Shown: positions 26,182 through 26,787 of the stretch, piece after piece
How the letters are laid out: each line of letters opens with the position of its first letter
How positions within the stretch are numbered: the stretch's first letter is position 1
Virus record (IMG/VR): IMGVR_UViG_2526164690_000052
Origin: a virus
Taxonomy: Duplodnaviria > Heunggongvirae > Uroviricota > Caudoviricetes
Reading direction: 5' to 3' (one strand)
Length of the DNA stretch: 37,501 nucleotides
The notes under the pieces: generated by a model
The model's database searches: none
What the model was told of the DNA's origin: nothing
The model's input: only the letters and a program-made list of their open reading frames with translations
Translations under genes and position numbers: made by a program

Positions 26182-26787
26182 CTATTTATACAATACAACA
26201 CCGCTCTTTTTAGTTATATATGTGCAGTTCGATGGTATATCTTTATTTATAAAAGACATTGCACCTATTTTTACATTATCCCCAATTTTACGTGATAATC
26301 CAATGATGCAACAATTAGCTCCGATATCAACGTTACTACCAATTTTTACTCTTGAACCAGGCATGTCACCATCTATCTGTCCAATGGTAGTATTCTGTCG
26401 TAACACCAGATTTTCACCAGCATCAACAGCAAAATGAACAACAATTCCAGCATGATGGGGAATTGTTAACCCTTTTCCAATATTTGCGCCCAATCCAATT
26501 TCACAACCAAATTTGTTAATTATTTTACTGTTTAACTTTTTGGCTGCTTTCTTATGTAATTTATTACCATTAATATACATTTCGTTAGCCAACCGCCACC
26601 AGAAAAGGAAATTCCGGTTACGCTGTTTTTTCTCTCTTAAAAGCCTCCAGATATCCATACGTTTCCGCCGAATTACTTCATATTTCCAGAAGTTTTTTAA
26701 ATTAGTAGAGTCCCCAAATAAAACAAAGTGAATTGCCATTAAGTAAGACAGCACGATAATCTCCTTAATTATTATTTCAGACCACAC
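26182..26787 (-). CDS. Hexapeptide-repeat (left-handed beta-helix) O-acetyltransferase, CysE/WcaB/LacA-like
   Basis: hexapeptide repeats IGANCCIIGLSRKIGDNVKIGAMSFI and HHAGIVV block; strongly AT-rich; occupies the Z/fun variable locus, opposite strand to G; true start may be internal ATG near 26739. Confidence 0.7.
   Translation of the reverse strand: MWSEIIIKEIIVLSYLMAIHFVLFGDSTNLKNFWKYEVIRRKRMDIWRLLREKKQRNRNFLFWWRLANEMYINGNKLHKKAAKKLNSKIINKFGCEIGLGANIGKGLTIPHHAGIVVHFAVDAGENLVLRQNTTIGQIDGDMPGSRVKIGSNVDIGANCCIIGLSRKIGDNVKIGAMSFINKDIPSNCTYITKKSGVVLYK

What the first reader, a model, noticed from the sequence alone, without database searches (positions are those of the whole stretch)
26182..26787. 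AT-rich hexapeptide-repeat acetyltransferase at the Z/fun hotspot, paired in the same prophage with an O-acetylesterase
Between G and the tail sheath block, where P2 carries Z/fun, sits a very AT-rich soluble left-handed-beta-helix acetyltransferase on the strand opposite to G, with its own terminator hairpin. The same prophage therefore encodes opposing acetyl-transfer and acetyl-removal enzymes, suggesting phage control of acetylation of a surface carbohydrate (capsule, O-antigen or sialic acid), which would alter receptor availability and serotype. I looked for NeuO-style 5' heptad repeats and found none.
Basis: partly seen in the sequence, partly recalled or inferred. Interest (0 to 1): 0.5.

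Follow-up and report, generated by a model that had tools for sequence, protein, structure and literature searches.

The report
Prophage acetyltransferase tied to tail-fibre genes
A P2-like E. coli prophage carries a self-contained, AT-rich gene for a soluble sugar-type acetyltransferase beside its tail-fibre genes; it most likely acetylates the cell's lipopolysaccharide, is probably not a cysteine-pathway enzyme, and is not partnered with the prophage's esterase.

Summary
Window 26182-26754 (-) encodes a 190-aa left-handed-beta-helix acetyltransferase at 34.6% GC. It has a promoter-like site, a Shine-Dalgarno sequence and a terminator hairpin, and it converges on the tail-fibre assembly gene. 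PGAP calls it "serine O-acetyltransferase". It keeps the catalytic His/acid pair but lacks CysE's serine-binding residues, N-domain and C-tail, and it falls below every NCBIfam cut-off.

It belongs to an uncharacterised phage family, phrog_2154. The gene is in 530 of 5426 complete E. coli genomes, including O157:H7, where a decayed prophage keeps it intact. In 62 of 80 viral loci the next gene downstream is a convergent tail-fibre assembly gene. The same module occurs in P1-like phages, inside the invertible C segment.

Chromosomal relatives (41-51% identity) sit inside LPS-core (waa) clusters in at least six genera. Some phage copies sit next to glycosyltransferases.

Best reading: a lysogenic-conversion gene that acetylates LPS, probably the core, and so alters a phage receptor. 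This is inferred from context, not shown.

The esterase pairing is not supported. The NanS-p-like esterase is absent from 13 of 19 assessable prophage loci that carry the acetyltransferase, and its known substrate is host mucin sialic acid. New member of a known kind; moderate interest.

The parts
26182..26754 (-). 190-aa LbH acetyltransferase ORF, including the stop codon, with a GTG start at 26754.
   Evidence: dN/dS 0.15-0.26
26761..26766 (-). Shine-Dalgarno sequence AAGGAG, 6 nt upstream of the GTG start
   Evidence: read from the sequence
26806..26834 (-). sigma-70-like promoter TTGAAT-17-TATAAT, 10 of 12 matches, about 50 nt upstream of the start. Predicted only.
   Evidence: The region as a whole has no more such sites than shuffled sequence.
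26136..26174 (-). Intrinsic-terminator-like hairpin (stem arms 26145-26153 and 26166-26174) plus a U-tract. It is shared with the convergent tail-fibre assembly gene, whose stop codon is at 26136-26138.
   Evidence: z = -4.6
26868..26900 (-). Hairpin just downstream of the gpU stop codon. It probably ends the late tail operon and insulates the acetyltransferase from it.
   Evidence: z = -3.7
25561..26138 (+). Tail-fibre assembly gene (Caudo_TAP, G-like), the conserved convergent partner of the acetyltransferase. It is frameshifted in this window.
23429..25561 (+). Tail-fibre gene (H-like). Its C-terminal tip (residues 580-710) moves with the assembly gene and the acetyltransferase into P1-like phages.
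26911..27405 (-). Tail protein gpU, the upstream flank of the slot
18082..19959 (+). NanS-p-like sialate O-acetylesterase (DUF1737 + SASA + DUF6645). It is the 'paired' esterase of the finding, and is judged to be an independent cargo gene.

Best explanation
The gene is a lysogenic-conversion cargo gene (a 'moron'). It is a compositionally foreign unit with a promoter-like site, a ribosome-binding site, an ORF and a terminator hairpin, inserted next to the receptor-binding module of a P88-like (Peduoviridae) prophage. Its product is a soluble acetyltransferase of the CysE/WcaB branch of the left-handed-beta-helix superfamily; by analogy with that branch it is presumed to be trimeric and to use acetyl-CoA.

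The inferred mechanism is as follows. [quoted passage not shown] This changes the LPS seen by phages that bind the core, including phages carrying the fibre module it travels with. The expected results are superinfection exclusion and an altered surface antigen.

Shown here: the anatomy of the gene, its fold, retention of the catalytic His/acid pair, absence of the serine-binding residues, purifying selection, the conserved linkage to the tail-fibre assembly gene, and the waa-cluster and glycosyltransferase contexts of relatives.

Inferred only: the acceptor, expression in the lysogen, and any effect on phage adsorption.
For: Moron anatomy and 34.6% GC.

Enzyme family:
- CysE/WcaB-like LbH fold.
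- His100 and Glu85 align with the positions taken here as CysE's catalytic His158 and Asp143.
- CysE Asp157 is replaced by Pro. The Asp92 region, the SATase_N domain and the C-terminal tail are absent. Arg192/His193 are not conserved across the family.
- WcaB, the colanic-acid acetyltransferase, is a closer E. coli paralogue than CysE: E = 9e-16 against 2e-09.

Linkage to the receptor-binding module:
- In 62 of 80 viral loci a Caudo_TAP gene lies convergent, 13-84 nt downstream. This holds down to 46% identity and for a 36% allele in the same slot in vB_EcoM-613R2.
- The module also occurs in P1-like phages, inside the invertible C segment.
- Other copies lie near a P22-type tailspike or at the integrase end of prophages.

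Glycan context:
- Phage copies are adjacent to HtrL_YibB, to a phrog_1962 glycosyltransferase and to Glyco_transf_25.
- Chromosomal relatives with the full family motifs lie in waa core clusters. In Leminorella the order is waaG-P-B-O-Y-Z-[gene]. Pantoea, Mixta, an Orbaceae bacterium, Gilliamella and Photorhabdus show similar placements. In Pseudomonadales the order is hldE-msbA-LPS kinase-[gene]-pse genes.

Retention: the gene is intact in the decayed O157:H7 prophage, and dN/dS is 0.15-0.26.

[quoted passage not shown] From general knowledge, P1, P2 and Mu fibres bind LPS core.
Against: No experiment on any member of the family was found. One paper states that the function is unknown (PMC9603915).

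The acceptor rests on guilt by association. Most chromosomal loci have uninformative neighbours, for example GGDEF/PAS genes in 9 Rahnella loci.

The tight linkage to the tail-fibre assembly gene could be simple hitch-hiking across a 44-nt spacer. The correlation of 0.97 comes from related, non-independent loci. Fibre tips vary (48-99% identity) beside near-identical acetyltransferase and assembly genes, which argues against a strict pairing of one tip with one modification.

To my knowledge, O-acetylation of the E. coli core has not been established.

The promoter is only a consensus match.
Confidence: 0.55

Rival explanations
1. It is a true serine O-acetyltransferase: an auxiliary metabolic gene that makes O-acetylserine and so boosts or deregulates cysteine synthesis, as the PGAP and published annotations imply.
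For: The best PDB and NCBIfam similarities are to CysE/EpsC-type enzymes. The catalytic His/acid pair is kept. Lacking the C-terminal tail, the enzyme would escape binding by CysK.
Against: Scores fall far below the equivalog cut-offs: 61 bits against 211 for cysE, and 75 against 150 for EpsC. The serine-binding Asp157 is replaced by Pro, the Asp92 region is absent, and Arg192/His193 are not conserved. There is no SATase_N domain. The genomic contexts are tail fibres, glycosyltransferases and waa clusters, never cys genes.
Confidence: 0.07
2. One reading: the acetyltransferase and the NanS-p-like esterase form an opposing pair that tunes acetylation of one surface carbohydrate (sialic acid, capsule or O-antigen).
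For: Both genes are in this prophage. A review raises, as an open possibility, that NanS-p might de-O-acetylate LPS during adsorption (PMC8065619).
Against: The two genes assort independently. The esterase is absent from 13 of 19 assessable P88-like loci that carry the acetyltransferase, and no esterase match was found in the roughly 10 kb of flank examined around the gene in P1-like and other carriers. The demonstrated substrates of NanS-p are host mucin sialic acids, and the phi24B homologue is a capsid decoration protein (PMC8065619; bioRxiv 10.64898/2026.04.10.717836). The two act in different compartments and probably at different times. There is no NeuO-like similarity and there are no repeats.
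Confidence: 0.07
3. It is an anti-phage or other intracellular function unrelated to surface glycans, for example acetylation of a phage component, a small molecule or an antibiotic, placed in a variable prophage slot in the way that defence genes are.
For: It occupies a variable slot downstream of G, which recalls Z/fun in P2. It is retained in a decayed prophage. The family is listed with unknown function in PHROGs.
Against: There is no PADLOC match. The P2 defence hotspot that has been described lies next to cos, at about 7.9-10.3 kb of this window, and the main text of that paper does not mention acetyltransferases. No Vat- or CatB-type xenobiotic acetyltransferase appears among the listed NCBIfam hits. 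Relatives sit in waa clusters.
Confidence: 0.1
4. It acetylates a surface glycan other than LPS core, such as O-antigen, ECA or colanic-acid repeat units on undecaprenyl pyrophosphate, as WcaB does.
For: WcaB is the closest characterised E. coli paralogue. EpsC is the best NCBIfam hit. In Pseudomonadales the neighbours include pseudaminic-acid genes. One copy lies near a P22-type tailspike.
Against: The most direct contexts are core-cluster genes. The carriers span many O-serogroups, including O157, O26, O111, O103 and O104, which favours a conserved acceptor.
Confidence: 0.18

Closest known systems
NeuO, the K1 capsule O-acetyltransferase of prophage CUS-3
   Same: It is a soluble hexapeptide-repeat acetyltransferase carried as prophage cargo directly beside the receptor-binding protein gene; in CUS-3 that position is between the tailspike gene and int. 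It modifies the glycan that phages recognise.
   Different: There is no family-level similarity, only 17 of 42 residues of generic repeats. There is no 5' heptanucleotide phase-variation tract. The predicted acceptor is LPS core, not polysialic acid.
WcaB, the colanic-acid O-acetyltransferase of E. coli
   Same: It belongs to the same CysE-like LbH branch, is short, lacks the serine-acetyltransferase N-domain and acts on a lipid-linked sugar in the cytoplasm. Identity is 35% over 109 residues.
   Different: The score is 53-54 bits against a cut-off of about 195. The target has a distinct five-helix N-terminal domain with the family motif FLFWWRLANEM. Its context is phage or waa, not the wca cluster.
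CysE, serine O-acetyltransferase
   Same: The fold and the catalytic His/acid pair are shared, and CysE-type enzymes give the best structural matches.
   Different: It lacks the serine-binding residues, the SATase_N domain and the CysK-binding tail, and it scores below the family cut-off.
Receptor-blocking genes placed beside phage receptor-binding genes (T5 llp, phi80/N15 cor) and the seroconverting genes oac and gtrABC
   Same: The logic is the same: a lysogen-expressed gene next to, or travelling with, the adsorption apparatus that disables or alters the receptor. This comparison rests on general knowledge.
   Different: Those genes encode lipoproteins or membrane proteins, or membrane AT3-family or Gtr enzymes that act on O-antigen in the periplasm. 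This gene encodes a cytoplasmic LbH enzyme.
Z/fun of phage P2
   Same: It is a non-essential cargo gene immediately downstream of the G-type tail-fibre assembly gene.
   Different: The other flank here is gpU of an inverted tail block. In P88 the slot derives from an invertible fibre segment. There is no sequence relationship, and no anti-T5 function was tested.

Membership tests
Left-handed beta-helix (hexapeptide-repeat) acyltransferase superfamily | Imperfect hexapeptide repeats that form an LbH domain | tested here: met
   Pfam Hexapep and Hexapep_2 hits are below the gathering score individually. The AF2 model shows the beta-helix. PDB sequence hits reach 1e-12.
Serine O-acetyltransferase (CysE, TIGR01172 / PRK11132) | Score above the curated equivalog cut-off | tested here: not met
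   61.5 bits against 210.65, and 36.7 against 397
Serine O-acetyltransferase (CysE) | Serine-binding residues (E. coli Asp92, Asp157, Arg192, His193; residue roles from general knowledge of CysE structures) | tested here: not met
   Asp157 is replaced by Pro, the Asp92 region is absent, and Arg192/His193 are not conserved in the family
Serine O-acetyltransferase (CysE) | SATase_N helical domain and C-terminal CysK-binding tail | tested here: not met
   No SATase_N hit. The protein ends 10-15 residues after the LbH domain.
Serine O-acetyltransferase (CysE) | Catalytic His-Asp pair | tested here: met
   His100 and Glu85 align with CysE His158 and Asp143 and are nearly invariant in the family
WcaB colanic-acid acetyltransferase (TIGR04016) | Equivalog score and location in the wca cluster | tested here: not met
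   53.3 bits against 194.65. The context is a prophage.
NeuO-type phage capsule O-acetyltransferase | Sequence similarity to NeuO and a 5' poly-psi heptanucleotide tract | tested here: not met
   Only a 42-residue generic match. No tandem repeats.
phrog_2154 (phage protein family of unknown function) | Full-length profile match | tested here: met
   E = 1.4e-87, residues 13-190 against profile positions 3-181 of 185
Phage 'moron' (independent cargo transcription unit) | Own promoter and terminator, and base composition unlike the flanking phage genes | tested here: inconclusive
   The composition difference and both hairpins are clear. The promoter is a 10-of-12 consensus match only. Transcription was not measured.
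LPS-core modification enzyme | Encoded within, or acting with, the waa core gene cluster | tested here: inconclusive
   Met for chromosomal relatives at 41-51% identity in at least six genera. The window copy is phage-borne, so its acceptor is inferred.
LPS-core modification enzyme | Acetyl group demonstrated on core oligosaccharide | not testable with these tools
   Needs mass spectrometry or NMR of LPS from strains with and without the gene
Known anti-phage defence systems (PADLOC) | Match to a defence-protein model | tested here: not met
   0 families

The most novel reading that the evidence does not exclude
The fibre tip, its assembly chaperone and the acetyltransferase form one mobile cassette for adsorbing and then closing the door behind the phage. 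In this reading the enzyme acetylates the LPS-core residue that the co-transferred fibre recognises, which would make the lysogen immune to any phage carrying that fibre module. The cassette moves between P2-like, P1-like and other phages. In P1-like phage-plasmids it rides inside the invertible C segment, so inversion also changes whether the gene is read through from the late fibre operon. The family would then be the first identified cytoplasmic LPS-core O-acetyltransferase of Enterobacterales.
Probability: 0.2. Interest if true: 0.65.

Novelty: new member of a known kind. Interest (0 to 1): 0.4.

Why it matters
About one in ten complete E. coli genomes carries this gene, including O157:H7, O26, O111, O103 and O104:H4 strains. 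Public annotation calls it a cysteine-pathway enzyme, which is probably wrong.

If it acetylates LPS core, three things would follow:
- It would be an unrecognised lysogenic-conversion factor that changes phage susceptibility, which matters for phage therapy and phage typing of STEC, and possibly core antigenicity.
- It would give a gene to core O-acetylation, a modification whose enzymes are still unassigned in Pseudomonas (PMC8005017).
- It would add an example of a receptor-modifying gene that travels with a receptor-binding module across unrelated phage backbones.

Tried and rejected
- PADLOC scan of the protein: no match.
- Link to the published P2 defence hotspot (Rousset et al.): that hotspot lies next to cos, where this window carries parM/partition and Ead genes. 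The main text of the paper does not contain the word 'acetyltransferase'.
- Remnants of a Gin/Cin-type crossover site in the window (AAACCNNGGTTT, one mismatch allowed): none. No long inverted repeats around the gene either, so the segment is not invertible here.
- NeuO homology: rejected.
- vB_EcoM-569R5 as a test of 'esterase without acetyltransferase': the record is partial and ends inside the esterase gene, so it is uninformative.
- Literature searches for a characterised member: they found only annotations and one explicit statement that the function is unknown.
- Foldseek against the PDB: it returned only CysE-type structures and did not help to identify the acceptor.
- yejM/yejL neighbours in Erwinia and Pantoea (DUF3413 + Sulfatase, DUF1414): I considered them as LPS evidence and set them aside as probable island-insertion context.
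- Association between E. coli core type and the gene: not computable, because the genome search lists at most 60 rows.

Full report
**1. What is at the coordinates**

The minus strand carries an open reading frame from 26787 or 26754 down to 26182. The first in-frame GTG, at 26787, gives 201 aa. The GTG at 26754 is preceded by AAGGAG and a 6-nt spacer (sequence). It matches the PGAP model in a near-identical E. coli prophage (WP_000954196.1, 190 aa), and it coincides with the N-termini of homologues (MLxYL...). I therefore place the gene at 26182-26754.

The ORF is 34.6% GC, with GC3 at 29.8%. The tail genes around it are 50-57% GC and the window as a whole is 51.8%.

Upstream there is a sigma-70-like site, TTGAAT-17-TATAAT, at 26834-26806. 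It is a consensus match only, and the region as a whole has no more such sites than shuffled sequence.

Two hairpins fold far better than shuffled sequence. One lies between the gene's stop codon and the stop codon of the convergent tail-fibre assembly gene, and it is followed by UUUCUCUUU on the minus strand (z = -4.6). The other lies just after the gpU stop codon (z = -3.7). Together these features give the anatomy of a phage 'moron'.

There are no tandem repeats, so no NeuO-style heptads. No 19-residue window is hydrophobic enough for a membrane span; the maximum Kyte-Doolittle mean is 1.1. Between alleles dN/dS is 0.15-0.26, so the protein is under purifying selection.

**2. The surroundings**

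The window is a P2-family prophage of the P88 type (Xuanwuvirus). It contains, in order: int, repressor, replication gene A, parM/partition genes, portal, terminase, capsid and lysis genes, a 625-aa DUF1737 + SASA + DUF6645 protein, baseplate genes, fibre H, and the tail-fibre assembly gene, all in the forward direction. The acetyltransferase and the U-T-E'-E-FII-FI block follow on the minus strand, then D.

The gene is therefore just downstream of the G-like assembly gene, as Z/fun is in P2. Its other neighbour, however, is gpU. In P88 itself the same slot holds an alternative fibre tip, a second assembly gene and a DNA invertase.

In this window the assembly gene is frameshifted by loss of one A from an A6 run. 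An IS element interrupts a YecA-like gene.

**3. What the protein is**

Pfam gives sub-threshold Hexapep hits. NCBIfam ranks EpsC, CysE and WcaB first, all far below their cut-offs. The best PDB sequence matches are serine acetyltransferases at 1e-12.

An AlphaFold2 model built from 33 family members has pLDDT 84.7. It shows a five-helix N-terminal bundle followed by the beta-helix. Foldseek returns only CysE-type structures, with TM-scores of 0.6-0.69.

I aligned the protein with E. coli CysE and WcaB taken from MG1655. The residue numbering and roles for CysE are from my knowledge of its structures.
- The catalytic histidine is kept (CysE His158 = His100 here), as is its acidic partner (Asp143 = Glu85).
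- Asp157 is replaced by Pro.
- The Asp92 region and the SATase_N domain are missing.
- Arg192/His193 are not conserved across the family.
- There is no C-terminal tail.

WcaB is the closer paralogue, with 35% identity and E = 9e-16. The 'serine O-acetyltransferase' label is therefore probably a misnomer. The protein belongs to phrog_2154, a phage family of unknown function. It has no PADLOC match.

**4. Distribution**

The ORF is present at 80% coverage or more in 530 of 5426 complete E. coli genomes. There are 533 chromosomal places and 66 on plasmids of about 95-102 kb. Carriers include O26, O111, O103, O104:H4 and many O157:H7 strains.

In O157:H7 strain 86-24 the host prophage has lost its head, lysis, baseplate and fibre genes, and it has a frameshifted tape-measure gene. 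The acetyltransferase is still intact.

Homologues at 36-70% identity occur across Enterobacterales, Orbales and Pseudomonadales, among others.

**5. Linkage to the receptor-binding module**

In 62 of 80 IMG/VR loci the next gene downstream is a convergent Caudo_TAP tail-fibre assembly gene, 13-84 nt away. Behind it lies a fibre gene. Most of the remaining loci are cut by contig ends.

This arrangement holds for alleles at 62-64% and 46% identity, each with a correspondingly diverged assembly gene. Pearson r is 0.97, but the loci are related, so this is descriptive only. It also holds for a 36% allele in the same U/assembly-gene slot of vB_EcoM-613R2.

The same assembly gene plus acetyltransferase, at about 91% protein identity, occurs in P1-like phages JL22 and Ro157c2YLVW. 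In JL22 it lies between the 602-nt inverted repeats of the C segment, so there it is cargo of the invertible element. The window has no such repeats.

The last 130 residues of the fibre are 98-99% identical in the P1-like loci, although their fibre N-termini are unrelated. Elsewhere the tip varies (48-70% identity) beside near-identical acetyltransferase genes. The linkage is therefore firm for the assembly gene and loose for the tip.

Other copies lie near a P22-type tailspike, at prophage ends next to int, next to hok at the end of a prophage, or on an E. coli plasmid beside type IV pilus genes.

**6. Clues to the acceptor**

Three separate phage lineages place the gene next to a glycosyltransferase-type gene:
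- HtrL_YibB in L081 and L083;
- a phrog_1962 glycosyltransferase in L087-L089;
- Glyco_transf_25 in a Xenorhabdus prophage, as a co-oriented pair between int and the tail fibre.

In one genome per species, searches with the MG1655 Waa proteins show the gene inside LPS-core clusters:
- Leminorella: waaG-P-B-O-Y-Z-[gene], all on one strand;
- Candidatus Pantoea superficialis and Mixta: [gene]-waaQ-G-P;
- an Orbaceae bacterium and Gilliamella: next to a WaaU-like heptosyltransferase;
- Photorhabdus: next to a WaaZ-like gene.

In Pseudomonadales the order is hldE-msbA-LPS kinase-[gene]-pseudaminic acid genes. These proteins carry the full family motifs.

Many other loci are uninformative, for example nine Rahnella loci next to a GGDEF/PAS gene. 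The neighbours I take to be yejM/yejL in four loci look like an island insertion site.

[quoted passage not shown] The enzymes that O-acetylate the core are still unidentified in Pseudomonas (PMC8005017).

**7. The esterase**

The 625-aa protein has the NanS-p architecture. Its DNA is about 88% identical to the yjhS/nanS-p genes of Stx phages. NanS-p enzymes de-O-acetylate host mucin sialic acids and are late-expressed (PMC8065619). In phi24B the homologue decorates the capsid through its DUF1737 domain (bioRxiv 10.64898/2026.04.10.717836).

Among P88-like loci that carry the acetyltransferase and where both flanks of the esterase slot are present, 13 lack the esterase and 6 have it. In P1-like and other carriers no esterase match was found within the roughly 10 kb of flank examined. 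The two genes are independent cargo.

**8. Conclusion**

The best-supported reading is a lysogen-expressed, cytoplasmic glycan O-acetyltransferase. Its most probable acceptor is LPS core, and it travels with the fibre and assembly-gene module and alters a phage receptor. The closest analogue in logic is NeuO of CUS-3, which also sits beside the receptor-binding gene but is not homologous.

I give about 0.55 to this general mechanism and about 0.4 to LPS core specifically. The enzyme's fold, its distinction from CysE, its linkage and its contexts are shown. The acceptor, expression in the lysogen and any effect on adsorption are inferred.

No experimental work on the family was found. One paper states that its presence is unexplained (PMC9603915), and another lists a phiNP gene with the same 'serine acetyltransferase' annotation simply as a 'fitness' gene (PMC6456863).

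Noticed in passing
window 25954-25958 (within the tail-fibre assembly gene, 25561-26138): The tail-fibre assembly gene is frameshifted by loss of one A from an A6 run, compared with strain E2865 and the IMG/VR copies. This splits it into 135-aa and 84-aa ORFs. It is either a pseudogene (a defective prophage) or a homopolymer sequencing error.
   Followed up: partly
window 34144-36017: An IS element (402-aa DDE_Tnp_1 transposase, 34809-36017, minus strand) truncates a YecA-family SEC-C-motif gene. 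That gene is intact (379 aa) between D and ogr in E2865.
   Followed up: partly
window 18082-19959: A NanS-p-type sialate O-acetylesterase gene sits between the lysis and tail genes of a P2-family prophage. Such genes are usually described in lambdoid Stx phages. It is present in only 6 of 19 assessable related prophage loci. If DUF1737 is a capsid-binding domain, as in phi24B, it is unclear what it binds on a P2-type capsid.
   Followed up: partly
window 7899-9828: ParM and partition genes plus an Ead/Ea22-like gene lie between replication gene A and the portal gene. This is the cos-adjacent variable hotspot described for P2-like phages, so the prophage carries at least three separate cargo slots.
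   Followed up: no
L174 (E. coli O157:H7 86-24, NZ_CP038408.1 3415403-3433975): The equivalent O157:H7 prophage is heavily decayed. An IS3-linked deletion has removed the head-to-fibre genes, the tape-measure gene is frameshifted, and D is cut by IS30. It still keeps an intact 190-aa acetyltransferase gene at 97.6% identity.
   Followed up: partly
L013 (phage JL22) 3992-9455: In P1-like phage-plasmids the acetyltransferase lies inside the invertible C segment, between 602-nt inverted repeats. In one orientation it is convergent with the expressed fibre operon. In the other it is co-directional and downstream of the alternative assembly gene, so inversion could switch late read-through of the gene.
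   Followed up: partly
L006-L009 (E. coli plasmids, e.g. CP042948.1): A 50%-identical family member (P0039) sits on plasmids just downstream of a type IV pilus operon (T2SSE ATPase, prepilin peptidase), among IS66 elements and EspF/IpaB-like fragments. This looks like an EPEC bfp/EAF-type plasmid and has no phage context.
   Followed up: no
L002-L005 (E. coli chromosomes): A 57%-identical allele (P0029, on 270 contigs) lies at the end of a different prophage, after the tail-fibre genes and a hok/gef gene, next to a P-type ATPase gene (HMA + E1-E2_ATPase domains). One E. coli genome can carry up to three places matching the window gene.
   Followed up: no
window 1008-2035: Two ORFs (115 aa and 216 aa) between the integrase and the HTH repressor have no convincing Pfam or PADLOC match. 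They may be further prophage cargo.
   Followed up: no
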